Source: a virus
Taxonomy: Duplodnaviria; Heunggongvirae; Uroviricota; Caudoviricetes
Virus record (IMG/VR): IMGVR_UViG_2639762844_000002
Coordinates: 1 to 34,405 of that record
Length of the DNA: 34,405 nucleotides
Reading direction: 5' to 3' (one strand)
The notes beneath the pieces are model-generated. The model ran no database searches. It had not been told where the DNA came from and worked only from the letters and a program-made list of their open reading frames with translations. The translations under genes were made by a program, and so were the position numbers. Positions 6,594-26,043 of this stretch are shown piece by piece (position 1 is the first letter of the stretch; the number at the start of each line of letters is the position of its first letter).

Positions 6594-8432
6594 ATGAGCG
6601 AGTTTGATGTTTTTTCTATTTCAGTTGATGATTTTAAAAAAAGTGAATACGCCAGTATATTATCATCGCCAAGAAGTTATTCTCATTTTGATATGGAGTC
6701 TTATTTTGTTCAGTTGTTGTCATCTTACAAGCTAAAAAACGATGTAAGTTCTTGGCGGCTTTGCTATTTATTACGTGCGTTGTTTAATTTTAAATTTTCT
6801 AGGTCTGGTGATATTATCGGTTTTGAGCCAAAAATCATTCTCTATCCTGAGAGGGGCTATAGGCCTTCAGATTATAAGGAGAGTTTTTCAACAATATTAA
6901 CTTGTATTAAAGAAAACTCCGATAATCCTTATATTATATCTAGGGTGTGTGATGTTTTATGGATAAATAACCGTAAGGATATAGACTCTGCCAATAAAGC
7001 AATAGAGTCATATTCTCTAATGGTTAATGATGCTTGCGATACTTTAATAGAAAAACAAGAGTCAGGTGATATCCATATTTTTGATGTTGTTGACTGCTTG
7101 GATAGAGGTATCGCAATATCGCGCATGCTTATTGGCAGGAAAAAACAACTACAAGGGGGGATAGTTGATTCGACATTAAGGTTATATCATGTATTAATAG
7201 ACTCTGGTATATTCACCGGTGTATTAAGAGTTTCTGAAATTCTTTATAAGAATAATTTATTGTGTCCCTTGCAATTGGCTGAGAATGCAGAAAAGATAGC
7301 TGATGAGCATTGTGGAGCGTCTTATTTTGATGCAGTGAAAAAATTGTTTTATTTTGCGTCTGAATTATATGTTAAAAACGATATGGAAGAGCAAGGAAGA
7401 CGGTGCAGAATTAAAGCGTCAGAAATAACATTGGCTCAATTTGAACAGTCTTCATCTTCAATATTGAAGGCTCATTGGTTAAGAGTTGCTCTTGGCGAAT
7501 TTAGAGCAATTGGTGGAATGAATGAAGAAATTAAAAAGATTAGAGAGGAATTGAATTCTATTCGAGATCAAATCAATGATGAAATGCACTTCTTTGCAAT
7601 ACCAATGGATCTTAGTGATGTTATCGCTCAGAAAGAGCATGTTTATAATCAATTGGATTTCTCAAGGGTAATTAAAACTTTAATTGCTAGATTTAAGATT
7701 GTAAGTGCCAGTGAAATTATGGAAAGAGCTCGTTCCGATGCTAAAAAACATTTTTTTCTTAATATGAGTGAAACGGTTGTTTATGATGATAGAGGGCGCG
7801 TTGTAGCAAGTCGTTCACCTTTGGATCCTGCGGGGGATATAAGTTTAAATGATGCTTGTGCAAATTATTTAAGAACTAGTAACATTGAGCATCAGGTCTA
7901 TGTTTGTGGTGAGTTTGAAGTCGTTAGGCAAAGTGTGTTGGCTAGGTATTCATTAAATGAAAATACATTTGACCCAATCTCACAACAAAGTGCATTTGTT
8001 CCACCTGGGTATGCAGAAATATTTTCTTTGGGGTTTTATAAGCTTTGGCAGGGAGATTATGTGTCTGCCTGTTATTTGTTATTGCCGCAATTGGAGAATT
8101 CAATTAGATGGATTTTAGAATTAAGAAGAAAAGAAACAACGAAAATAGATGTGTCGCTTTTTGAGGAGGCTACTAGCCTATCTCAAATGCTTGCAAATTA
8201 TAGGAGTGAAATGGAAGGTGTTTTTGATAGTGATCATGTATTGACTATGGATTTATTGTTCAATATGAAAGGTGGTGCTGCAATTAGACACACGATGGCT
8301 CATGGCAGGTATACTGTAAATCATTGTTATCAACCAACTTCAGTTTTTGCCTGTGTCTTTATCTTTTATTTAACTTGTTTGCCTTTATTTAGTGTATGGG
8401 AAGATAAAGTTGAACCTTATCTGGCTGATTAA
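6594..8432 (+). CDS. Cargo protein of unknown function (612 aa) at the tin/old hotspot; candidate anti-phage defence protein
   Basis: Long ORF in an AT-rich block between A and cos. RBS aggtgagg. No Walker A (GxxxxGK[ST]) motif, unlike P2 Old. C-terminal hydrophobic stretch SVFACVFIFYLTCLPLFSVW. An R-x4-H motif (AIRHTMAHG) sits near the C-terminus. Confidence 0.8.
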   Translation: MSEFDVFSISVDDFKKSEYASILSSPRSYSHFDMESYFVQLLSSYKLKNDVSSWRLCYLLRALFNFKFSRSGDIIGFEPKIILYPERGYRPSDYKESFSTILTCIKENSDNPYIISRVCDVLWINNRKDIDSANKAIESYSLMVNDACDTLIEKQESGDIHIFDVVDCLDRGIAISRMLIGRKKQLQGGIVDSTLRLYHVLIDSGIFTGVLRVSEILYKNNLLCPLQLAENAEKIADEHCGASYFDAVKKLFYFASELYVKNDMEEQGRRCRIKASEITLAQFEQSSSSILKAHWLRVALGEFRAIGGMNEEIKKIREELNSIRDQINDEMHFFAIPMDLSDVIAQKEHVYNQLDFSRVIKTLIARFKIVSASEIMERARSDAKKHFFLNMSETVVYDDRGRVVASRSPLDPAGDISLNDACANYLRTSNIEHQVYVCGEFEVVRQSVLARYSLNENTFDPISQQSAFVPPGYAEIFSLGFYKLWQGDYVSACYLLLPQLENSIRWILELRRKETTKIDVSLFEEATSLSQMLANYRSEMEGVFDSDHVLTMDLLFNMKGGAAIRHTMAHGRYTVNHCYQPTSVFACVFIFYLTCLPLFSVWEDKVEPYLAD

Positions 8433-8593
8433 TGGAAGTTGATTTAGGTATTTTGGCATTTATCTTTCTGCGTGCAATATGTGCATGGTTTTGCATGTGC
8501 CGGAGTTGCATGTTCCGGCCGTGCGTCCGCCAGGACGGGCGTGGCTCAAAAGCGGTATTGCACCTGCATTAAAACCGCCCCACGAAGCGGGCG

Positions 8594-8612
8594 GGCGAGG
8601 CGGGGAAAGCAC
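8594..8612. other. cos site: 19-nt cohesive end ggcgaggcggggaaagcac
   Basis: Matches the P2 cohesive-end sequence as I recall it. Embedded in a GC-rich non-coding island (about 8470..8650) inside AT-rich cargo, upstream of Q as in P2. Confidence 0.6.
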
Positions 8613-8745
8613 TGCGCGCAATGATGTCAGTTTGAGGGCATCAGGCATGGGGACACTACACAGTTTCATTTTTGTTATTAATTGTTTATCATATAAGTGT
8701 TTGTTTTTTGAACGGCATGTCGTGTGCTATATGGAGTGAATAGAA

Positions 8746-9015
8746 GTGACTAAATTTGACAAAAAAAAAGCAATTTCTATTTTAACAGAAAAAAAAGCCT
8801 TGCTCCCATGTCATCGGTGTGGAAATTCAAAGTTCATCATTTTGGATGGCATATCATCACTTCCATTAATGGAAAATATGGAAATGATTGGTAGTATTGT
8901 TGTTGGCGGAATGAATGCTCCTGTATTACATGTGGCATGTGAGAATTGTGGTGCAGTTACTTCACATTTGCTTGGGGCACTTGGTTTAATGCCGGAGATT
9001 AAATCAAATGACTAA
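8746..9015 (+). CDS. Small four-Cys zinc-ribbon protein (89 aa), cargo
   Basis: GTG start with GGAG 10 nt upstream. CHRCG ... CENCG is a two-CxxC zinc ribbon. Overlaps the downstream gene by 8 nt. Confidence 0.6.
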   Translation: MTKFDKKKAISILTEKKALLPCHRCGNSKFIILDGISSLPLMENMEMIGSIVVGGMNAPVLHVACENCGAVTSHLLGALGLMPEIKSND

Positions 9016-9478
9016 GGATGTTTTTTTCTCTGATGAAGGTAGTGGTAAAAAAAGTGCTGTCTTGCATGGGGCGCAGGTTACAATAAACCCTGATTCGCAA
9101 TTTACAAAAAAGATAATTAGGCAGACTGAGGTTGATGTTATTGTGATAAGTGATGATAAACTTCATATAATTTTGACGAATTGCTTATCTAAAATTGCAT
9201 CATTAAACCGCTGGTCAACACCTTTGGGTATTTTAATTACCTTGGCGGTAACTATGTTAACCACAAATTTTAAGAATTTTATTCTTCAGGATTCTGTGTG
9301 GGAGGCTGTTTTCTGGATGCTTATTTTTTTTAATATTATCTGGTTGGTGAAAAACATTCCATATAGACACTTATTTTTAACTGTTTGTCATTCTATAGGG
9401 GTTCGTAAAGATAAAAAAAGAATTAGTGATGTATACCACATTATAGATATAATTAAACAAGGTGATACACGCTTTTGA
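9008..9478 (+). CDS. Small membrane protein with two predicted TM helices (156 aa), cargo
   Basis: Hydrophobic segments LGILITLAVTMLTT and VFWMLIFFNIIWLV. Translationally coupled to the zinc-ribbon gene. AT-rich. Confidence 0.65.
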   Translation: MTKDVFFSDEGSGKKSAVLHGAQVTINPDSQFTKKIIRQTEVDVIVISDDKLHIILTNCLSKIASLNRWSTPLGILITLAVTMLTTNFKNFILQDSVWEAVFWMLIFFNIIWLVKNIPYRHLFLTVCHSIGVRKDKKRISDVYHIIDIIKQGDTRF

Positions 9479-9511
9479 TTTAATATCAATATTTGATTGA
9501 GTATATAATAA

Positions 9512-9534
9512 AGCCGCCTGAGTTTATGGCGGCT
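9512..9534. terminator. Hairpin terminator (agccgcc-N9-ggcggct), effective on the minus strand
   Basis: Stem-loop followed by tttattatata on the minus strand, terminating the leftward Q-P operon. Also lies just after the plus-strand small genes. Confidence 0.5.
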
Positions 9535-9554
9535 AATATAGGGTGTGTGCTAAG

Positions 9555-10574
9555 TCATAATGTGTATTTGTTGAATCTAATTATTTCTTCGCCAACCCAT
9601 TCATTAAGGGCAATAAAGCGAGATTGAATAGGAGTAAGCTCATTGCGGACAAAGACCTTTGCCACTTTCTCAATATCACCCAGCGACCCGACGTTCTCCG
9701 GCTTGCCGCCCATCAACTGAAAGGGGATGCGGTGCGCGTCCAGCAGGTCAGCGGCGCTGGCTTTTTTGATATTAAAAAAATCGTCCTTCGTTGCCACTTC
9801 ACTGAGCGGGATAATTTTAATGCCGTCGGCTTTCCCTTGCGGGGCATAGAGAAACAAATTTTTAAAGTTGTTGCGGCCTTTCGACTTCACCATGTTTTCG
9901 CGAAGCATTTCGATATCGTTGCGATCCTGCACGGCATCGGTGACGTACATGATGTATCCGGCATGTGCGCCGTTTTCGTAATACTTGCGGCGGAACAGCG
10001 TGGCCGACTCATTCAGCCAGGCAGAGTTAAGGGCGCTGAGATATTCCGGCAGGCCGTACAGCTCCTGATTAATATCGGGCTCCAGCAGGTGAAACACGGA
10101 GCCGGGCGCGAAGGCTGTCGGCTCGTTGAAGGACGGCACCCACCAGTAAACATCCTCTTCCACGCCACGACGGGTATATTTTGCCGGTGAGGTTTCCAGT
10201 CTGATGACCTTACCGGTGGTGCTGTAGCGCTTTTCCAGAAACGCATTACCGAACACCAGAAAATCCAGCACAAAGCGGCTGAAATCCTGCTGGGAAAGCC
10301 ACGGGTGCGGGATAAACGTTGAAGCCAGAATATTACGTTTGACGTAAATCGGTGAGCTGTGATGCACGGCAGCACGCAGACTTTTTGCCAGACCGGTAAA
10401 GCTGACCGGCGGCTCATACCATCTGCCGTTACTGATGCATTCGACGTAATCCAGAATGTCACGGCGGTCGAGTACCGGCACCGGCTCACCAAAGGTGAAT
10501 GCCTCCATTTTCGGGGCGCTGGCGGTCATTTTTTTTGCCGCAGGTTGCGGTATTTTCCCTTTTTTCTTGCTCAT
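9555..10574 (-). CDS. Q: Portal protein
   Basis: 339 aa; position and length as P2 Q (capsid portal). The extreme C-terminal codons are AT-rich. Confidence 0.9.
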   Translation of the reverse strand: MSKKKGKIPQPAAKKMTASAPKMEAFTFGEPVPVLDRRDILDYVECISNGRWYEPPVSFTGLAKSLRAAVHHSSPIYVKRNILASTFIPHPWLSQQDFSRFVLDFLVFGNAFLEKRYSTTGKVIRLETSPAKYTRRGVEEDVYWWVPSFNEPTAFAPGSVFHLLEPDINQELYGLPEYLSALNSAWLNESATLFRRKYYENGAHAGYIMYVTDAVQDRNDIEMLRENMVKSKGRNNFKNLFLYAPQGKADGIKIIPLSEVATKDDFFNIKKASAADLLDAHRIPFQLMGGKPENVGSLGDIEKVAKVFVRNELTPIQSRFIALNEWVGEEIIRFNKYTL

Positions 10575-17287: not shown

Positions 17288-17700
17288 TGACTGTGCTGGT
17301 TGTGTTGTTATCACTGGCGGTGGCCGGTCTGTTTCTGGTGAAACATAAAAATGCCAGCCTGCGCGCCTCGCTGGACAGGGCGAACAACGTCGCCAGTGAA
17401 CAGCAGACGACTATCACCATGCTGAAAAATCAGCTTCATGTTGCGCTCACCAGGGCAGACAAAAACGAGCTGGCGCAGGTGGCTCTGCGTCAGGAACTGG
17501 AGAACGCCGCGAAGCGTGAAGCACAGCGCGAGAAAACCATCACGAGATTACTCAATGAAAACGAAGATTTTCGCCGCTGGTACGGTGCTGACCTGCCTGA
17601 TGCTGTGCGCCGGTTGCACCAGCGCCCCGCCTGCACTGACGCCAGTGATTGTCGCCAACGCCTGCCCGAAAGTGAGTCTTTGCCCGATGCCGGGCAGTGA
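17275..17700 (+). CDS. lysB: Rz-like spanin (inner membrane subunit) LysB
   Basis: 141 aa, N-terminal TM helix then coiled coil. Confidence 0.85.
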   Translation: MSKLMTVLVVLLSLAVAGLFLVKHKNASLRASLDRANNVASEQQTTITMLKNQLHVALTRADKNELAQVALRQELENAAKREAQREKTITRLLNENEDFRRWYGADLPDAVRRLHQRPACTDASDCRQRLPESESLPDAGQ

Positions 17701-17845
17701 CCCGGAGACGAACGGCGATTTAAGTGCCGATATCCGGCAGCTTGAGAACGCGCTGGCACGCTGTGCCAGCCAGGTAAAAATGATTAAACACTGTCAGGAC
17801 GAAAACGATGCTCAAACCCGACAGCCTGCGCAGGGCACTGACTGA
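17555..17845 (+). CDS. lysC: Rz1-like outer-membrane lipoprotein spanin LysC, overlapping lysB in another frame
   Basis: 96 aa from the ATG at 17555. Signal peptide ending LMLCAGC. Proline-rich. Confidence 0.8.
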   Translation: MKTKIFAAGTVLTCLMLCAGCTSAPPALTPVIVANACPKVSLCPMPGSDPETNGDLSADIRQLENALARCASQVKMIKHCQDENDAQTRQPAQGTD

Positions 17846-18275
17846 TGCCGTCACGGTGCTGAAAACCAGCCCCGAGATGCTGCGGATATTCGTGGATAAC
17901 GGGAGTATTGCCTCCACACTGGCGACGTCGCTGTCATTCGAAAAGCGTTACACGCTCAATGTCATTGTGACCGACTTTACCGGTGATTTTGACCTGCTCA
18001 TCGTGCCGGTGCTGGCGTGGCTGCGGGAAAATCAGCCCGACATCATGACCACCGACGAAGGCCAGAAAAAGGGCTTCACGTTTTATGCGGACATCAACAA
18101 TGACAGCAGCTTTGATATCAGCATCAGCCTGATGCTGACCGAGCGCACGCTGGTCAGTGAGGTGGACGGCGCACTGCATGTGAAGAATATCCCGGAACCT
18201 CCGCCGCCGGAGCCGGTCACCCGCCCGGTGGAGCTTTATATCAATGGCGAACTGGTGAGCAAGTGGGATGAATGA
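17808..18275 (+). CDS. R: Tail completion protein R
   Basis: 155 aa; position as P2 R. Confidence 0.88.
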   Translation: MLKPDSLRRALTDAVTVLKTSPEMLRIFVDNGSIASTLATSLSFEKRYTLNVIVTDFTGDFDLLIVPVLAWLRENQPDIMTTDEGQKKGFTFYADINNDSSFDISISLMLTERTLVSEVDGALHVKNIPEPPPPEPVTRPVELYINGELVSKWDE

Positions 18276-18726
18276 GTTTAAGCGTTTTGAAGACCGGCTG
18301 ACCGGACTTATTGAATCGCTGTCACCGTCAGGGCGTCGGCGACTGGCGGTAGATATTGCGAAGAAACTGCGCCAGCGCCAGCAGCAGCGAATTAAATTAC
18401 AAAAAGCCCCGGATGGTACGCCGTATATACCGAGAAAAAACCAGCCAGTGCGAAATAAGAAAGGCCGGATAAAGCGGGAAATGTTTGCGAAATTACGCAC
18501 AAACCGATTTATGAAAGCAACAGGTAGCGAGAGTGCGGCTGTGGTGGAGTTTGCCAGCGGAGTACAACGAATTGCGAGAGTACATCAATTAGGGCTTAGG
18601 GATAAGCCGGGGCGTAATAGTGCTGTGGTGGAATATCCTGTTCGTGAGTTATTAGGTTTTGACAAGGAATCTATACAATTGATAGAAAAGGAGTTATTAG
18701 TGATTCTATCGAAAGATGTTATATGA
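18268..18726 (+). CDS. S: Tail completion protein S (3' end recoded AT-rich)
   Basis: 152 aa. The N-terminal two thirds are GC-typical; composition turns AT-rich from about 18590. Confidence 0.85.
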   Translation: MNEFKRFEDRLTGLIESLSPSGRRRLAVDIAKKLRQRQQQRIKLQKAPDGTPYIPRKNQPVRNKKGRIKREMFAKLRTNRFMKATGSESAAVVEFASGVQRIARVHQLGLRDKPGRNSAVVEYPVRELLGFDKESIQLIEKELLVILSKDVI

Positions 18727-19478
18727 GATGGGTGTTTGTGGATAAAAAATTTTCCATTTTGAGAAAAAGAGTAAAGCATTCTCAAAAGAAAGTTATGGAT
18801 TGTATTATTGCTGACCATAATGCTGATGTATGTGTGTTATGCGGGAGTTCTGACGATATTACTCGTGAGCACATTATTCCTCAGTGGGCCTTTGAGTCAA
18901 ATGCTGAAAAACTTTTAATTAATAAAAAGAATAATCAGTCAACTCATTACATCAAAGCCACTGTACCAGCATGCAGAGTGTGCAATTCTGATTTGCTGGG
19001 AGCGTTTGAGTATAACCTGAAGAAATTTCTTACGGAAAAGAGGGGCGATGAGTTAACAGATTATGAATATGATTGCATCATATGGTGGTTGCAATACATG
19101 GGCTTTAAGTTGCAATTAATGGATTTACGGACCCGCTTTCTCAGGTATAAAGGGGGGGATTATATCCCTTTCCTTGCAAACTTCCCGGTTGCAATGTTTT
19201 GGGGGAATGTCGATACGACACCGGAGGATGTCTTCAGGATTATAAGAAAATCGCGACGCAATCTGATGTCGAAATGGAAGGATAAAAAACATAATTCTTT
19301 GATGGTTTTTGAAACATCAAACAAGAGTTTTCATTTCTTTCATAAGGTTGATGAATTTATTTTTATTGAAATGCCTCAGGTTAAGAAGGCGTTTTTCTTC
19401 TTTTTTAATAAAGAATTTGACAGCCATGATTTAGCTCATGAGGAGTGTATGAAGATTATAGAGAAGTGCTACAACTAA
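18723..19478 (+). CDS. HNH-motif nuclease-domain protein (251 aa), cargo inserted between S and V
   Basis: CVLCGSSDDITREHIIPQW ... CRVCNSDL fits the HNH signature (CxxC-EHIxP-N-CxxCN). AT-rich. Start overlaps the S stop (ATGA). Confidence 0.8.
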   Translation: MRWVFVDKKFSILRKRVKHSQKKVMDCIIADHNADVCVLCGSSDDITREHIIPQWAFESNAEKLLINKKNNQSTHYIKATVPACRVCNSDLLGAFEYNLKKFLTEKRGDELTDYEYDCIIWWLQYMGFKLQLMDLRTRFLRYKGGDYIPFLANFPVAMFWGNVDTTPEDVFRIIRKSRRNLMSKWKDKKHNSLMVFETSNKSFHFFHKVDEFIFIEMPQVKKAFFFFFNKEFDSHDLAHEECMKIIEKCYN

Positions 19479-19555
19479 TATTTATTATGTTGTGTCACGG
19501 CTGACAGAGTCCTCCATGATTGCTGCTGGTATCGTCCGGCGGCATCCTTCCCGTC

Positions 19556-20191
19556 ATGAACACTCTCGCAAATATTCAGGAACTCGCGCGCGCACTGCGC
19601 AACATGATTCGTACCGGCCTTGTCGTCGAAACCGACCTTAACGCCGGTCGCTGCCGTGTGCAGACCGGCGGCATGTGCACCGACTGGCTTCAGTGGCTGA
19701 CCCATCGCGCCGGGCGTTCGCGCACATGGTGGGCACCTTCCGTGGGGGAACAGGTGCTGATTCTGGCCGTGGGCGGTGAACTCGACACTGCGTTCGTTCT
19801 GCCGGGGATTTATTCCGGCGATAACCCCGCGCCGTCGGTGTCGGCGGATGCCCTGCATATCCGTTTCCCTGACGGGGCGGTGATTGAGTATGAACCTGAA
19901 ACCAGTGCACTCACGGTAAGCGGAATTAAAACGGCCAGCGTGACGGCTTCTGATTCTGTTACTGCCACGGTGCCGGTGGTCATGGTGAAAGCATCAACCC
20001 GCGTCACCCTGGACACACCGGAGGTGGTCTGCACCAACAAGCTGATTACCGGCACGCTGGAAGTGCAGAAGGGCGGGACGATGCGCGGCAACATTGAACA
20101 CACCGGCGGTGAACTTTCATCAAACGGGAAGGTACTGCATACCCATAAACACCCCGGCGACAGCGGCGGCAAAACCGGGAGTCCTCTATGA
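19556..20191 (+). CDS. V: Baseplate spike protein
   Basis: 211 aa from the ATG at 19556; begins MNTLANIQELARALRNMIRTG. Confidence 0.9.
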   Translation: MNTLANIQELARALRNMIRTGLVVETDLNAGRCRVQTGGMCTDWLQWLTHRAGRSRTWWAPSVGEQVLILAVGGELDTAFVLPGIYSGDNPAPSVSADALHIRFPDGAVIEYEPETSALTVSGIKTASVTASDSVTATVPVVMVKASTRVTLDTPEVVCTNKLITGTLEVQKGGTMRGNIEHTGGELSSNGKVLHTHKHPGDSGGKTGSPL

Positions 20192-20535
20192 CAGCGCGTT
20201 ATCTAGGGATGAATCGCAGTGATGGCCTGACTGTCACTGACCTTGAGCATATCAGCCAGAGTATCGGCGATATCCTGCGCACACCGGTCGGCTCACGGGT
20301 GATGCGTCGTGATTACGGCTCGTTGCTGGCATCAATGATTGACCAGCCGCAGACCCCCGCGCTTGAGTTGCAGATTAAGGTCGCCTGTTACATGGCGGTG
20401 CTGAAATGGGAACCCCGCGTAACCCTGTCATCCGTCACCACGGCGCGCAGTTTTGACGGGCGAATGACGGTCACGTTAACCGGTCAGCACAACGACACCG
20501 GCCAGCCACTTTCGTTAACCATCCCTGTGAGTTGA
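20188..20535 (+). CDS. W: Baseplate protein W (gp25-like)
   Basis: 115 aa. Confidence 0.9.
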   Translation: MTARYLGMNRSDGLTVTDLEHISQSIGDILRTPVGSRVMRRDYGSLLASMIDQPQTPALELQIKVACYMAVLKWEPRVTLSSVTTARSFDGRMTVTLTGQHNDTGQPLSLTIPVS

Positions 20536-20539
20536 AACC

Positions 20540-21448
20540 ATGCCGATTATCGACCTGAACCAGCTACCCGCACCGGATGTGGTCGAGGAGCTGGACTTTG
20601 AAACCATTCTCGCTGAACGCAAGGCGACACTGATTTCCCTTTACCCGGAAGACCAGCAGGAGGCGGTCGCCCGTACCCTGACGCTGGAATCTGAGCCTCT
20701 CGTCAAACTGCTGGAGGAAAATGCTTATCGTGAGCTTATCTGGCGTCAGCGTGTGAATGAGGCCGCACGGGCGGTGATGCTGGCCTGTGCCGCCGGTAAT
20801 GACCTTGATGTGATTGGTGCCAATTACAACACCACGCGCCTGATTATCACCCCGGCAGATGATTCGACCATCCCGCCGACACCGGCAGTGATGGAATCTG
20901 ACACGGATTATCGTCTGCGTATTCAGCAGGCGTTTGAAGGTTTAAGCGTCGCCGGGTCGGTGGGTGCCTATCAGTATCATGGTCGCAGTGCTGACGGGCG
21001 TGTCGCGGATATCTCTGTCACCAGTCCGTCTCCGGCCTGCGTCACCATCTCTGTGCTGTCACGTGAGAATAACGGTGTCGCATCCGAAGACCTGCTGGCG
21101 GTGGTGCGTAACGCCCTGAATGGCGAGGACGTCAGGCCGGTGGCCGACCGCGTGACCGTGCAGTCTGCCGCCATCGTTGAATACCAGATAAACGCCACGC
21201 TTTACCTTTACCCTGGTCCCGAAAGCGAACCCATACGCGCTGCCGCCGTGAAAAAACTGGAAGCGTACATCACGGCACAGCACCGGCTGGGGCGCGACAT
21301 CCGTCTGTCTGCCATTTATGCCGCTTTGCATGTGGAAGGCGTGCAGCGTGTCGAACTGGCTGCACCACTGGCTGACATCGTGCTCAACAGTACGCAGGCG
21401 TCTTTCTGTACCGAATACCGCGTCGTGACCGGAGGCTCGGATGAGTGA
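20540..21448 (+). CDS. J: Baseplate assembly protein J
   Basis: 302 aa. Confidence 0.9.
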   Translation: MPIIDLNQLPAPDVVEELDFETILAERKATLISLYPEDQQEAVARTLTLESEPLVKLLEENAYRELIWRQRVNEAARAVMLACAAGNDLDVIGANYNTTRLIITPADDSTIPPTPAVMESDTDYRLRIQQAFEGLSVAGSVGAYQYHGRSADGRVADISVTSPSPACVTISVLSRENNGVASEDLLAVVRNALNGEDVRPVADRVTVQSAAIVEYQINATLYLYPGPESEPIRAAAVKKLEAYITAQHRLGRDIRLSAIYAALHVEGVQRVELAAPLADIVLNSTQASFCTEYRVVTGGSDE

Positions 21449-24114: not shown

Positions 24115-24642
24115 ATGCAGCATTTGATAAATATAACAGCGGGGAATCCAAAAACGGTTGAACAATATCAATTGACAAAGGGTTTTGATGTTGTCTGGTT
24201 TTTTTCAGAAGATGGTAAGAACTGGTACGAAGAACAAAAGTATTTTGCTGATGACACGATAAAAATAGCGTACGACAAAGATAATATTATCCGCTATGTG
24301 GAAAAGGATGTGACAGCTATCAGACCAGATGGATTAAGTGTTGTTGAAGTGCCAGATATTACTGCTAACCGACGGGCGGACATTTCAGGGAACTGGATGT
24401 TTAAGGACGGCACAGTGATTAAACGAATTTATACGGCGGAGGAATTGCAGCAGCAGGCAGAAAATCGGAAAGCCAGACTTCTAGCAGATGCTGAATCCGT
24501 GATTTTGCCGCTGGAGCGCTCTGTCAGGCTGAACATGGCAACAGAGGAGGAGCGCACACGGCTGGAGGCTTGGGAACGCTATAGCGTTCTGGTCAGTCGT
24601 GTGGATCCTGCAAATCCTGAATGGCCGGAAATGCCGCAATAA
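24115..24642 (+). CDS. G: Tail fibre assembly chaperone
   Basis: 175 aa, immediately downstream of H. Confidence 0.88.
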
Positions 24643-24694
24643 GTTGTATGAGCTCTGGTGGGAGCCTACATATCTATGGCACAGAGTAAAGCCT

Positions 24695-24730
24695 AATCTG
24701 ACAGTCCGCTCTGTGCCAAAAGCGGACGTT
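24695..24730. repeat. Left copy of a 36-nt imperfect inverted repeat flanking the Z/fun-locus cargo gene
   Basis: aatctgacagtccgctctgtgccaaaagcggacgtt; its reverse complement matches 25951..25986 at 32 of 36 positions. Overlapping hairpins ggcacagag/ctctgtgcc and gtccgct/agcggac are present. Confidence 0.6.
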
Positions 24731-24805
24731 ATAAATTTCTTTTAGGGCAACCGAAAAAAGAGGGGTACGACCTATACTTGATTTGTATTTTAGATCACGC
24801 TTGCA

Positions 24806-25846
24806 TCAGTATAAATTTAACCCAAGCTTACTAATTTCTTTTCTACGCATTCCAAAAATAACATCACCACTTCTAGAAATGAATGAAGCAATGCGTCGGT
24901 CATTGTCATCTACACCTTCCCAGAAGAAAGGGACATTATTGTTCATCAGACTTTCTGCAAAGGTTAAATGTGTTAACGCCAAGAAAATTCTAACAAAATT
25001 AGATGGCTCATTGAAATCCTGATTCAGCAAATGTAGTGTCAAATGTCTATTGAAGCTACCTTCATTAACACCTCCAGTTGGTTTATATATGACATTTTTA
25101 AAAAAAGATCTGGTTGAATTCATCACATCACACTGGGGGTTTAAATGTGTGAAAAAATCCACCTCAGTTTCAATGTCATAACCTTTGCCGGGATGCCAGT
25201 CAAAATTTGGGAGCTGCCGTCTTCCCCATGTAATAATGAGTTTTCTAATTTCCTTTTCAAATCTGTCTGCACTTGTATTTGTGTTGTCACCATCACAAAA
25301 TTTTACAAGTAAGTTCCTCAATCCACCTTCAAAGACAGGGAAGAGCGACATTATAGATATATGATCATACCCCAAATAAAAAGCTTCTATAGCTTCAAAA
25401 ATAATTGTCTTGTAGTTTTTTAGTGATTCGCTCTTTATAAAGTATTTGTTGAAGTAAGCAATTGCAATTTCTAATGAGAAATTTTCGAATAACCATTTAT
25501 TTGAATTATTAAGCGGATTTTCACTTCTTTTAATTTCATGGATTGCAGAAGAAAGAGTGCCTTCTCCAATATATAGGGGTAATGCTATACCAAGTGAATT
25601 TGCATGCGACTGAATATTCGAACATCGTCCCCAATGTCTATTTAAGTACGATATTGGCCTTTCGGTAAGCAAGAAGTTTAAATCATCAATTTTAACTGTG
25701 AAAGAAGCATAACAAAGTTCACTTTTTGAGATTACTGGTTCTACGCTATGATTTCTCCTGAATTGATTTAGAATTTCATTCTCAGAGAGTTTGTCTAATT
25801 TTGATAAGCGTTTCAAAGTTGGCAGGAATTTTTCTAAATCTGACAT
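24806..25846 (-). CDS. Cargo protein of unknown function (346 aa) at the Z/fun locus; candidate anti-phage or exclusion protein
   Basis: AT-rich ORF on the strand opposite the late genes, between G and FI where P2 carries Z/fun. Own AT-rich upstream region. No recognisable motif. Confidence 0.8.
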   Translation of the reverse strand: MSDLEKFLPTLKRLSKLDKLSENEILNQFRRNHSVEPVISKSELCYASFTVKIDDLNFLLTERPISYLNRHWGRCSNIQSHANSLGIALPLYIGEGTLSSAIHEIKRSENPLNNSNKWLFENFSLEIAIAYFNKYFIKSESLKNYKTIIFEAIEAFYLGYDHISIMSLFPVFEGGLRNLLVKFCDGDNTNTSADRFEKEIRKLIITWGRRQLPNFDWHPGKGYDIETEVDFFTHLNPQCDVMNSTRSFFKNVIYKPTGGVNEGSFNRHLTLHLLNQDFNEPSNFVRIFLALTHLTFAESLMNNNVPFFWEGVDDNDRRIASFISRSGDVIFGMRRKEISKLGLNLY

Positions 25847-25950
25847 AATAATCCTAAAAGTTAAGAATTAATCTTTACGAAAGATATCATATGATACTTT
25901 GATTAATTATACTATTTAATGGTGTTTTTATCAGCACAGAACTAAGCGTA

Positions 25951-25986
25951 AACGTCCGCTTTTCGCTCAAAGCAGACTGTCAGATT
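25951..25986. repeat. Right copy of the 36-nt imperfect inverted repeat flanking the Z/fun-locus cargo gene
   Basis: aacgtccgcttttcgctcaaagcagactgtcagatt; partner of 24695..24730. Confidence 0.6.
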
Positions 25987-26043
25987 TGATAGCGTTTGGG
26001 CTATGTAATAGTCAGTTGGAAAATGAGTGAGTACAAATCAGGA

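What the first reader, a model, noticed from the sequence alone, without database searches (positions are those of the whole stretch)
18590..19478. HNH-motif protein inserted between tail genes S and V, with the 3' end of S recoded
P2 has no gene between S and V. Here a 251-aa AT-rich ORF sits there, start-overlapping the S stop. It carries a clear HNH nuclease signature near the N-terminus (CVLCG ... EHIIPQW ... N ... CRVCN) followed by about 150 aa of unknown function. The last ~45 codons of S switch to AT-rich codon usage (from about 18590), so the junction lies inside S. Two explanations are plausible: a free-standing HNH homing endonuclease (a selfish element), or a nuclease-based anti-phage/abortive-infection protein riding in the prophage.
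Basis: partly seen in the sequence, partly recalled or inferred. Interest (0 to 1): 0.65.

Follow-up and report, generated by a model that had tools for sequence, protein, structure and literature searches.

The report
HNH nuclease cargo in P2 prophage
A P2-like E. coli prophage carries an uncharacterised zinc-type HNH nuclease gene in an already known accessory-gene slot between tail genes S and V; it is a reasonable candidate for a phage-versus-phage weapon, but it is not a new kind of element.

Summary
The ORF is real (18723/18738-19478, + strand, GC 0.36 against 0.55-0.62 in the flanks). It is under purifying selection. Its CxxCG...EH...N...CxxCN motif is invariant in relatives down to 41% identity, so it is very probably a Cys4-zinc HNH nuclease. 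The rest of the protein matches no known fold or family.

P2 itself has the nonessential orf30 between S and V, and this is one of three classical moron regions. The same ORF was already described in phage R18C as a moron of unknown function.

The junction inside S at about 18590 is real. The last ~45 codons of S travel with the cargo. They are a divergent allele, not a synonymous recoding. In other E. coli P2-like prophages the slot is empty or holds orf30, Pycsar, PDC-S59, a RelA/SpoT-like protein or a PCRF-domain protein.

About 5% of E. coli P2-like prophages carry the HNH gene. It co-diverges with the tail genes and follows the S stop by 5-20 nt, so it is probably late-transcribed. Distant homologues sit in other phage slots and in chromosomal islands.

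My best reading is an inter-phage conflict or defence nuclease (about 0.45). Homing endonuclease is disfavoured (about 0.15). Interest is modest.

The parts
17808..18275 (+). gpR tail completion/terminator gene (conserved left flank)
   Evidence: Pfam P2_Phage_GpR 6.1e-45. It lies within a 93%-identical alignment to L-413C that spans 17302-18492.
18268..18726 (+). gpS tail completion gene, a mosaic allele
   Evidence: Pfam Phage_tail_S 6.7e-31 over residues 3-145. It diverges from P2/L-413C-type S from about 18340. R18C, a viable phage, has the same allele.
18590..18726 (+). Cargo-linked 3' end of S (last ~45 codons), AT-rich, inherited together with the HNH gene
   Evidence: GC is 0.385 here against 0.50-0.52 in P2/L-413C. 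Other-cargo prophages match this S allele only up to ~18588-18608. The C-terminal 45 aa are 30-38% identical to Pycsar/PDC-S59 carriers but 47-60% identical to HNH carriers of other genera. Pairwise Spearman correlation between HNH and the S C-terminus is 0.68.
18738..19478 (+). HNH-family ORF, 246 aa from the conserved start codon (GTG here). The longest-ORF ATG at 18723 would give 251 aa.
   Evidence: ORF list. The start position is conserved in 19 diverged carriers. PHROG 10503 matches full length at 4.8e-181, function unknown. dN/dS is 0.165. It is present in 77 of 5426 complete E. coli genomes, always next to gpS.
18831..18986 (+). Cys4-zinc HNH (beta-beta-alpha-metal) core, residues 37-88 in 251-aa numbering: C37xxC40G, E49-H50, N70, C84xxC87-N88
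   Evidence: These columns are invariant in alignment A2 and in the wider superfamily alignment A4. The AF2 model has strands 46-50, 64-66, 73-75 and 80-84 followed by helix 85-105, with pLDDT 89-95 on both Cys-pair segments. HNH_5 hits 23 of 24 relatives. Both motifs align to the solved HNH endonuclease 4H9D at E 0.09.
19490..19506 (+). TTGT-N10-ACA element, the activator (Ogr-type) site of late promoter P_V; right boundary of the cargo
   Evidence: Similarity to empty-site phage L-413C resumes here. A TTGT...ACA element lies about 65 nt before the V ATG in most of the loci compared (two end in ACC or AAA instead). It corresponds to the annotated activator site of P2.
19557..20191 (+). gpV baseplate spike gene (conserved right flank), true ATG start
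   Evidence: Pfam Phage_base_V 2.4e-20 and Phage_spike 2.7e-28. It lies within a 96.8%-identical alignment to L-413C that spans 19519-20700. The ATG matches the annotated V starts.

Best explanation
The ORF is an accessory (moron) cargo gene. It occupies the third, classical variable slot of P2-like phages, between the tail-completion gene S and the activator site of the late promoter P_V. This is the slot that holds orf30 in P2.

It encodes a stand-alone Cys4-zinc HNH (beta-beta-alpha-metal) nuclease of an uncharacterised family. An N-terminal helical hairpin and the HNH core (residues ~37-105) are followed by a family-specific C-terminal region of ~145 residues with no detectable relatives.

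The gene is inherited as one module with the last ~45 codons of S. The probable reason is that exchange between P2-like phages happens by homologous recombination, with crossovers in the conserved 'VHQxGL' coding stretch of S on the left and in the P_V region on the right.

It follows the S stop by 5-20 nt, with no terminator and no convincing promoter. It is therefore probably transcribed as the last cistron of the late O operon.

Most likely function (inferred, not shown): an inter-phage or anti-mobile-element conflict nuclease. His50 would activate water. Asn88, probably helped by Asn70, would hold the catalytic metal. The four Cys would hold a structural zinc. The C-terminal region would supply target or trigger specificity. 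The nuclease would cut the DNA of a competing phage or satellite, or act abortively on the cell's own DNA. It would act in the lysogen or when the late operons are switched on.

Shown here: gene, motif, selection, slot, module boundaries and distribution. Inferred: nuclease activity, timing of expression and biological role.
For: Slot identity:
- P2 has Orf30 at this position, with a terminator after S and the activator site before V.
- The R18C paper names this as one of three moron regions and describes this very ORF.

Polymorphism of the slot:
- Most of the P2-like phage records listed span only ~1632 bp here against 2401 bp in the window, so they lack ~770 bp.
- Among E. coli prophages sampled, the slot classes were empty 25, orf30-type 9, HNH 3, and GTP pyrophosphokinase, PCRF-domain protein and ATP-binding protein 1 each.
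- Pycsar (PycC 1.5e-128, PycTM 8.5e-29) and PDC-S59 (5.8e-31) occupy the same slot.

HNH assignment:
- C37, C40, E49, H50, N70, C84, C87 and N88 are invariant.
- The AF2 secondary structure has the expected strands and helix; pTM is 0.83.
- HNH_5 matches 23 of 24 relatives, best E 1.3e-08.
- Both Cys-pair motifs align to 4H9D.

Functional gene: dN/dS is 0.165, and copies are mostly intact.

Module including the S 3' end.

Cargo-like mobility of the family:
- A marine-clade homologue lies ~4 kb from a gpQ portal homologue in a P2-like contig, which is the hotspot #1 region.
- One homologue lies upstream of a lambda-type portal.
- About 25 homologues sit in chromosomal loci with no conserved partner. 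Their neighbours include five integrase-family proteins and some defence candidates.

Late-operon placement: there is no terminator or promoter, and the tight spacing to S is conserved.
Against: - There is no hit to any PADLOC defence model (best PDC-M01B, E 0.022). No experimental data exist for any family member.
- Among carriers the gene co-diverges with the tail genes (Spearman ~0.67). The 2026 P2/P4 preprint reports almost no linkage (<=0.2) between defence cargo and core genes. This fits a phage-lifecycle gene better than a rapidly swapped defence gene.
- Placement at the end of a late operon, with no detectable promoter of its own, argues against expression in the lysogen. Classical prophage defence needs such expression.
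- The HNH call for this protein alone is below Pfam's threshold. No fold search gave a significant match.
- Neighbourhoods of the chromosomal homologues are mostly housekeeping genes, so any defence-island signal is weak.
Confidence: 0.45

Rival explanations
1. Free-standing HNH homing endonuclease. During co-infection or induction it would cut the S 3' end or P_V region of P2-like genomes that lack it. Repair from the carrier genome would copy the gene together with its divergent, cleavage-immune S 3' end (intron-less homing with co-conversion).
For: - Presence/absence polymorphism at a fixed intergenic site between conserved genes.
- 48 of 50 viral-contig homologues are at exactly the same S-V position.
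- The gene is co-oriented and tightly apposed to the upstream late gene.
- The adjacent S segment is strongly diverged and linked to the gene.
- A few disrupted copies exist, as a homing cycle predicts.
Against: - The same S-internal junction and AT-rich S 3' ends accompany nuclease-free cargoes (Pycsar, PDC-S59, PCRF protein).
- No NUMOD, IENR1, AP2 or HTH DNA-binding module was found.
- Full-length homologues occur in a different P2 slot, in a lambda-like head operon and in about 25 non-phage chromosomal loci.
- No near-identical copies occur in divergent backbones. Frequency in E. coli P2-like prophages is only ~5%, and copy diversity equals backbone diversity.
- Long-term purifying selection applies over the whole protein.
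Confidence: 0.15
2. Late-expressed helper nuclease serving the phage's own lytic cycle. Possible roles are degrading host DNA, processing replication or packaging intermediates, or assisting terminase as HK97 gp74-type HNH proteins do. On this reading it is a non-essential but lineage-linked phage gene rather than a weapon.
For: - Divergence is linked with R, S, V and W across a 45-99% identity range.
- The position as last cistron of the late O operon is conserved, with no promoter of its own.
- It is retained in the plaque-forming phage R18C.
- A homologue is embedded between a terminase-sized ORF and the portal of a lambda-like prophage.
Against: - About 95% of E. coli P2-like prophages and most of the isolated P2-like phages listed, including P2, lack it and are viable.
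- It is not adjacent to the P2 terminase or portal genes.
- Most distant homologues are in non-phage chromosomal contexts.
- The slot otherwise holds defence-type cargo.
Confidence: 0.15
3. Not an active nuclease. The protein would be a zinc-ribbon protein that has kept the HNH scaffold for nucleic-acid or protein binding. Alternatively it is a toxin-like selfish gene with no benefit to phage or host.
For: - The HNH_5 score is below Pfam's threshold for this protein.
- No significant structural match was found.
- Residues 139-161 are conserved in sequence but modelled as disordered, which suggests a partner-dependent region.
Against: - The catalytic-type residues (E49-H50, N70, N88), and not only the zinc cysteines, are invariant down to 41% identity. 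E, H and the helix N are also invariant across the wider superfamily. Pseudo-enzymes usually lose these residues.
Confidence: 0.1

Closest known systems
P2 orf30 moron locus (S-V variable region of P2-like phages; Christie & Calendar review as cited in PMC6823313) and ORF16 of phage R18C
   Same: Same genomic slot, between gpS and the P_V activator site. The cargo is nonessential and AT-rich. The R18C ORF is 96% identical and was already described as replacing orf30.
   Different: The protein is unrelated to P2 Orf30 (BLASTP E 2.8). It is on the opposite strand. It directly follows S instead of being separated from it by the O-operon terminator.
HNH_5 (PF14279) / Cys4-zinc HNH endonucleases such as the Geobacter metallireducens HNH endonuclease (PDB 4H9D)
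   Same: CxxC ... (D/E)H ... N ... CxxCN arrangement. Both Cys-pair motifs align, and a beta-beta-alpha core is predicted.
   Different: The score is below Pfam's gathering cut-off. There is a longer insert between the His strand and the CxxCN helix. N-terminal helices and a ~145-aa C-terminal region have no known counterpart.
Prophage-borne single-gene or compact anti-phage systems of the P2 hotspots (old, tin, fun/Z; DUF4238, PD-T4/PD-lambda systems; Rousset 2022, Vassallo 2022), and Pycsar found in this same slot
   Same: AT-rich accessory cargo in a P2 variable slot, exchanged between otherwise similar prophages. The nuclease effector type is common in defence.
   Different: There is no model hit and no experimental support. 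The gene is embedded in a late operon. It is linked with backbone divergence rather than rapidly swapped.
Free-standing phage HNH homing endonucleases (T4 Mob proteins, I-HmuI type; recalled from general knowledge, not tested against their sequences)
   Same: An HNH gene lying between conserved phage genes, co-oriented, sporadic in distribution, with diverged flanking sequence.
   Different: There are no DNA-binding accessory modules. The site is shared with unrelated cargoes. Homologues exist outside phages. There is no sign of horizontal sweeps.

Membership tests
HNH / His-Me finger nucleases (Pfam HNH_5 PF14279) | Catalytic His at the end of the first beta strand, preceded by an acidic residue | tested here: met
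   E49-H50 are invariant in 21 family members and in 24 wider relatives. They lie in predicted strand 46-50.
HNH / His-Me finger nucleases (Pfam HNH_5 PF14279) | Asn in the second strand or loop, and Asn/His metal ligand at the start of the alpha helix | tested here: met
   N70 is invariant and N71 is at least 90% conserved. N88 is invariant, follows C84xxC87 and lies at the start of helix 85-105.
HNH / His-Me finger nucleases (Pfam HNH_5 PF14279) | Two CxxC pairs forming the structural zinc site | tested here: met
   C37, C40, C84 and C87 are invariant. Both pairs align to 4H9D.
HNH / His-Me finger nucleases (Pfam HNH_5 PF14279) | Score above the family's curated threshold | tested here: not met
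   16.5-19 bits against a gathering score of 27.5. The link is transitive: 23 of 24 superfamily members match HNH_5 at E <= 0.1, best 1.3e-08.
HNH / His-Me finger nucleases (Pfam HNH_5 PF14279) | Beta-beta-alpha-metal fold confirmed by structural comparison | tested here: inconclusive
HNH / His-Me finger nucleases (Pfam HNH_5 PF14279) | Metal-dependent nuclease activity | not testable with these tools
   This needs purified protein and H50A/N88A controls.
Free-standing HNH homing endonucleases | Presence/absence polymorphism at one fixed site between conserved genes | tested here: met
Free-standing HNH homing endonucleases | The site is specific to this gene, and the flanking divergence is explained by cleavage immunity | tested here: not met
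   At least five unrelated cargoes use the slot. Three nuclease-free cargoes have the same S-internal junction and AT-rich S 3' ends.
Free-standing HNH homing endonucleases | DNA-binding accessory modules (NUMOD, IENR1, AP2, HTH) | tested here: not met
   No such Pfam, PHROG or NCBIfam hits at E <= 1.
Free-standing HNH homing endonucleases | Cleavage of the gene-less allele and super-Mendelian inheritance | not testable with these tools
   This needs in vitro cleavage assays and mixed-infection crosses.
Known anti-phage defence systems (PADLOC-DB v2.0.0) | Match to a defence-protein model | tested here: not met
   Best hit is PDC-M01B at E 0.022 over the HNH motif only. Ten wider relatives also gave no hit.
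Known anti-phage defence systems (PADLOC-DB v2.0.0) | Location in a slot that carries validated defence systems | tested here: met
   A complete Pycsar system and candidate PDC-S59 occupy the same S-V slot in other E. coli prophages.
Known anti-phage defence systems (PADLOC-DB v2.0.0) | Protection against phage infection | not testable with these tools
   This needs efficiency-of-plating assays.
P2 Orf30 family | Sequence homology to P2 Orf30 | tested here: not met
   BLASTP best E is 2.8. tblastn of the ORF against 50,697 phage records found only R18C.
Packaging-associated HNH (HK97 gp74 type) | Gene adjacent to terminase/portal genes and required for cos cleavage | tested here: not met
   In P2-like phages it lies between tail genes S and V, and most P2-like phages lack it. 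One distant homologue does lie between a terminase-sized ORF and a lambda-type portal. The cos-cleavage requirement is not testable here.

The most novel reading that the evidence does not exclude
The late-operon placement may be the mechanism. On this reading the HNH gene, and the co-oriented Pycsar cassette in the same slot, is a 'trap' that stays silent in the lysogen. It would be switched on when a satellite (P4 delta) or a superinfecting P2-like phage (an Ogr-type activator) trans-activates the prophage's late operons. The nuclease would then destroy the hijacker's DNA or abort the hijacked cell. This would make the S-V slot a third P2 hotspot, specialised in activator-triggered defence. 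It would also define a new stand-alone HNH defence family with a novel C-terminal domain.
Probability: 0.12. Interest if true: 0.7.

Novelty: new member of a known kind. Interest (0 to 1): 0.35.

Why it matters
If the protein proves to be a defence or exclusion nuclease, it adds a compact single-gene HNH family that PADLOC-DB v2.0.0 does not detect.

It would also draw attention to the S-V (orf30) slot as a defence-carrying hotspot of P2-like phages. The slot already holds Pycsar, PDC-S59 and a RelA/SpoT-like protein. The papers read here treat it far less fully than the tin/old and Z/fun hotspots.

The module boundary inside the essential gene S is a concrete, sequence-resolved example of how hotspot cargo is exchanged by homologous recombination. 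The 2026 P2/P4 preprint explicitly leaves that mechanism open.

The practical value is modest: better annotation of PHROG 10503 and of about 5% of E. coli P2-like prophages.

Tried and rejected
- Profile searches of PDB sequences found nothing with the full-length profile. The N-terminal profile gave only weak HNH hits.
- PADLOC, NCBIfam and Pfam gave no informative hit for the C-terminal region.
- Homology to P2 Orf30 was rejected.
- Transposon-like or att-like insertion was rejected, because no flanking direct or inverted repeats exist.
- A conserved partner gene was rejected, because the distant homologues share no neighbour.
- A plasmid origin was rejected, with no hit in 72,556 plasmids.
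- A sigma-70 promoter for the ORF was not found. There is only a perfect -35 (TTGACA, 18659-18664) with a poor -10, read by eye, and the scan tool found nothing upstream.
- A possible link to DUF4238, the P2 hotspot anti-T7 protein, rests on one of 24 relatives at E 0.041.
- Public names for the wider 300-360-aa relatives were only 'hypothetical' or 'HNH endonuclease'.
Full report
**Observation**

The window is a complete P2-like prophage. Three query segments (the ORF, the S 3' part and the R/V-H flanks) are 100% identical to E. coli ECC-1470.

An ORF of 251 codons lies at 18723-19478 on the + strand. It sits between gpS (18268-18726; Phage_tail_S 6.7e-31) and gpV (true ATG at 19557).

GC falls to 0.30-0.42 across 18600-19500, against 0.55-0.64 on either side.

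C37, C40, G41, E49, H50, P53, W55, N70, C84, C87 and N88 are invariant in an alignment of 21 family members, including a Bacteroidota protein at 41% identity.

The gene is not a chance ORF:
- dN/dS against the R18C copy is 0.165, comparable to the essential neighbours R (0.15) and S (0.22).
- More than 100 conserved copies exist.

P2 does have a gene between S and V. NC_001895 annotates the nonessential Orf30 on the minus strand (9439-10224). It lies between the O-operon terminator that follows S and the activator-binding site of P_V.

The R18C paper (PMC6823313) lists this as one of three moron regions of P2-like phages. It describes this very ORF (its ORF16, 96% identical) as a 741-bp hypothetical gene that replaces orf30. 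That paper found seven prophage homologues and obtained no information from PSI-BLAST.

PHROGs already holds the family as phrog_10503, function unknown. P2 Orf30 itself is unrelated to this protein.

The start overlapping the S stop is probably not the real start. In 19 diverged carriers the ORF begins at the codon 43 residues upstream of the EH motif, which is ATG in most carriers outside the close E. coli/R18C group. In the window that codon is GTG 18738, 11 nt after the S stop, and gives 246 aa.

**The junction inside S**

Against the empty-site phage L-413C, high identity stops at about 18340 and resumes at about 19490-19519. Most of S is therefore a variant allele.

- 79 E. coli genomes carry this S allele in full, and 77 carry the ORF.
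- 18 further genomes match the allele only up to window ~18588-18608.
- The two of those genomes examined carry other cargo. One has a complete Pycsar system, co-oriented and directly after S (strain ST2747). The other has a 414-aa ATPase matching PADLOC candidate PDC-S59 (strain CFSAN061770).

Comparison of the S protein bears this out:

| Compared with the window's S | Residues 1-107 | Last ~45 residues |
|---|---|---|
| Pycsar and PDC-S59 carriers | 91-98% identical | 30-38% identical |
| HNH carriers from other genera | 69-77% identical | 47-60% identical |

The last 135 nt of S have GC 0.31-0.47 next to the HNH, Pycsar, PDC-S59 and PCRF cargoes. They have GC 0.50-0.52 in P2, in L-413C and next to a GTP-pyrophosphokinase cargo.

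The swapped unit is therefore the 3' end of S plus the cargo. The S tail is a divergent allele, not a synonymous recoding.

The inner junction coincides with the most conserved coding stretch of S (V105-H106-Q107-x-G109-L110). Every cargo ends directly upstream of the late-promoter activator element, about 65 nt before V; it reads TTGT...ACA in most of the loci compared. The simplest reading is homologous recombination between P2-like phages, with crossovers in the nearest conserved sequence on each side. No direct repeats flank the cassette.

I cannot explain why the S tails are AT-rich. I have recorded this as unexplained.

**Slot polymorphism**

Most of the P2-like phage records listed have about 770 bp less DNA in this interval.

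A flank-only query hit 2248 of 5426 complete E. coli genomes, 1475 of them over at least 80% of the query. Among 40 informative sampled rows, the S-plus-cargo classes were:

| Slot content | S-plus-cargo size | Rows |
|---|---|---|
| Empty | 520 bp | 25 |
| orf30-type | 1394 bp | 9 |
| HNH ORF | 1289 bp | 3 |
| RelA/SpoT-like 'GTP pyrophosphokinase' | 1759 bp | 1 |
| PCRF-domain protein | 2108 bp | 1 |
| ATP-binding protein (PDC-S59 type) | 1902 bp | 1 |

The sample is ranked by similarity to the window, so it is biased.

The HNH gene is in 77 genomes, roughly 5% of E. coli P2-like prophages. It is always beside gpS and never on a plasmid.

**What the protein is**

Pfam gives only a sub-threshold HNH_5 hit (16.5 bits against a cut-off of 27.5). 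Three further lines support the HNH assignment:
- A deep profile search found a small core family (34 representatives at E <= 1e-30). It also found about 860 further proteins, many of 300-360 aa, that share only positions 25-130.
- 23 of 24 of these N-terminal modules hit HNH_5, best E 1.3e-08.
- The N-terminal profile aligns both Cys-pair motifs with the solved HNH endonuclease 4H9D (E 0.09).

The AlphaFold model (pLDDT 78.8, pTM 0.83) places the CxxC pair before strand 46-50, which ends in E49-H50. A hairpin at 64-75 carries N70. Strand 80-84 leads into helix 85-105, which starts at C84xxC87-N88. This is the beta-beta-alpha-metal layout.

Residues 139-161 are conserved in sequence but modelled as disordered. 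The C-terminus forms a four-stranded sheet plus a helix.

No fold search gave a significant match. No PADLOC, NCBIfam or PDB-sequence hit exists. I am about 85% confident that it is an HNH-type nuclease. The rest of the protein is novel.

**Distribution and linkage**

In IMG/VR, 48 of 50 full-length homologues lie in the order R-S-HNH-V-W. HNH identity runs from 99% down to 45%, roughly in step with the flanking proteins.

Over 33 dereplicated loci, pairwise HNH identity correlates with R, V, W and the S C-terminus at Spearman ~0.67. The core tail genes correlate with each other at 0.76-0.86. There is no case of near-identical HNH in clearly divergent backbones. A few pairs show HNH allele replacement in near-identical backbones.

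This differs from the near-zero linkage (<=0.2) reported for P2 defence cargo in the 2026 preprint. It argues for an old, backbone-associated occupant of the slot.

The family is nevertheless not tied to this site:
- A marine-clade homologue lies ~4 kb from a gpQ portal homologue in a P2-like contig, which corresponds to the hotspot #1 region.
- One homologue lies between a terminase-sized ORF and a gpW-sized ORF plus a lambda-type portal in a Desulfobacterium prophage.
- About 25 homologues at ~40% identity lie in chromosomes with no P2 genes nearby and no conserved partner. Hosts include Vibrio, Photobacterium, Shewanella, Halomonas, Bacteroidota and a Gracilibacteria genome. Their neighbours include five integrase-family proteins and a few defence candidates, but mostly housekeeping genes.

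**Expression (inferred)**

No terminator separates S from the ORF, whereas P2 has one directly after S. No acceptable sigma-70 promoter precedes the ORF. The 5-20 nt spacing after the S stop is conserved. The gene therefore looks like the last cistron of the late O operon. I could not test whether it is also expressed in lysogens.

**Interpretation**

These points are secure:
- It is an accessory cargo gene in a known variable slot.
- It encodes an uncharacterised Cys4-zinc HNH protein under purifying selection.
- It is inherited as a module together with the S 3' end.

The biological role is inferred.

I favour an inter-phage or anti-mobile-element conflict nuclease (0.45). The slot carries bona fide and candidate defence systems, the family behaves as stand-alone cargo in several contexts, and the other two hotspots of this prophage are also loaded. 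The cargo at the tin/old position matches PDC-S39 at 2e-68.

Against this reading stand the lack of any defence-model hit, the late-operon placement and the backbone linkage.

Homing (0.15) would explain the positional fidelity and the diverged flank. Three observations undercut it: nuclease-free cargoes share the same junction, accessory DNA-binding modules are missing, and homologues occur at non-phage and alternative sites.

A lytic-cycle helper role (0.15) fits the linkage and operon position. It does not fit the gene's absence from ~95% of E. coli P2-like prophages and from P2 itself.

A non-catalytic zinc protein (0.1) is unlikely because the catalytic-type residues are invariant.

**Novelty and interest**

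The gene, its position and its 'unknown function' status are already in the literature and in PHROGs. One UniRef entry for a family member is already named 'HNH endonuclease'.

This analysis adds:
- solid support for the HNH assignment;
- the definition of the cargo module, including the S 3' end;
- evidence that the S-V slot carries defence systems such as Pycsar;
- the unexpected backbone linkage.

This is a new member of a known kind, and a reasonable candidate for experimental testing. It is not a surprising element. Interest 0.35.

Noticed in passing
window 6594-9478 (AT-rich island about 6600-9600, between gpA and gpQ): The classical tin/old hotspot of this prophage carries a 612-aa protein that matches PADLOC candidate PDC-S39 (2e-68). 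It also carries a 156-aa ORF with no hit. GC is 0.32-0.43.
   Followed up: partly
window 24806-25846 (minus strand; AT-rich island about 24600-26000, Z/fun position): A 346-aa ORF on the minus strand occupies the Z/fun hotspot position, between the tail-fibre genes and the sheath gene. GC is 0.33-0.39 and there is no PADLOC hit. All three variable slots of this prophage are therefore occupied.
   Followed up: partly
L055 2901-4803 (E. coli ST2747, NZ_CP007394); L054 2974-4218 (CFSAN061770); L056 1049-2128 (strain E1); L057 1046-2497 (strain 1500): The same S-V slot holds other cargo in other strains. These are a complete Pycsar system (PycTM plus PycC), a PDC-S59-type ATPase, a RelA/SpoT-like 'GTP pyrophosphokinase' and a PCRF-domain protein. 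In the papers I read, the S-V slot gets little or no explicit treatment as a P2 defence hotspot.
   Followed up: partly
window 18590-18726 and the equivalent S 3' ends in L054, L055, L057: Four unrelated cargoes each come with their own AT-rich last ~135 nt of the essential gene S (GC 0.31-0.39). The three tested against the window's version are only 55-60% identical to it at the nucleotide level. Cargoes that follow an intact P2-type S (orf30, GTP pyrophosphokinase) do not show this. The cause is unexplained. It could be a low-GC donor, embedded regulatory signals, or something else.
   Followed up: partly
L006 6785-7828; L089-L092 (0.8-1.1 kb extra between the HNH ORF and V): Some HNH carriers have a second cargo gene between the HNH ORF and V. 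In L006 it is a 347-aa ORF with a hydrophobic N-terminus and no Pfam or PADLOC hit. The slot can therefore stack cargo.
   Followed up: partly
L056 969-1048 and about 2200-2273: In the GTP-pyrophosphokinase carrier, an empty-site-like P_V activator sequence (TTGTGTCATTCCCGACACC) and a hairpin follow S. A second TTGT... element precedes V. This suggests insertion downstream of an original activator site, with duplication of the element.
   Followed up: no
proteins P0119-P0193 (deep-search hits): There is a much larger, unnamed superfamily of proteins, many of 300-360 aa. They share only the N-terminal CFLCG...EH.FP.W...PCC..CN module plus two helices, and have different C-termini. They score below threshold for HNH_5 and are absent from PADLOC. 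One member also has an OTU protease domain.
   Followed up: partly
PMC6823313 compared with NC_001895 annotation: The R18C paper calls P2 ORF30 'short, 261-bp-long'. The GenBank record shows a 786-bp gene encoding 261 aa, so the paper's figure is probably amino acids, not base pairs.
   Followed up: yes
L005 ('Sporobacter termitidis' MAG) and L006 ('Chryseobacterium sp.'): These two records are labelled as Firmicutes and Bacteroidota genomes. Both carry enterobacterial-type P2-like prophage segments that are 60-85% identical to the window's proteins. They are probably contaminating or mis-binned contigs.
   Followed up: no
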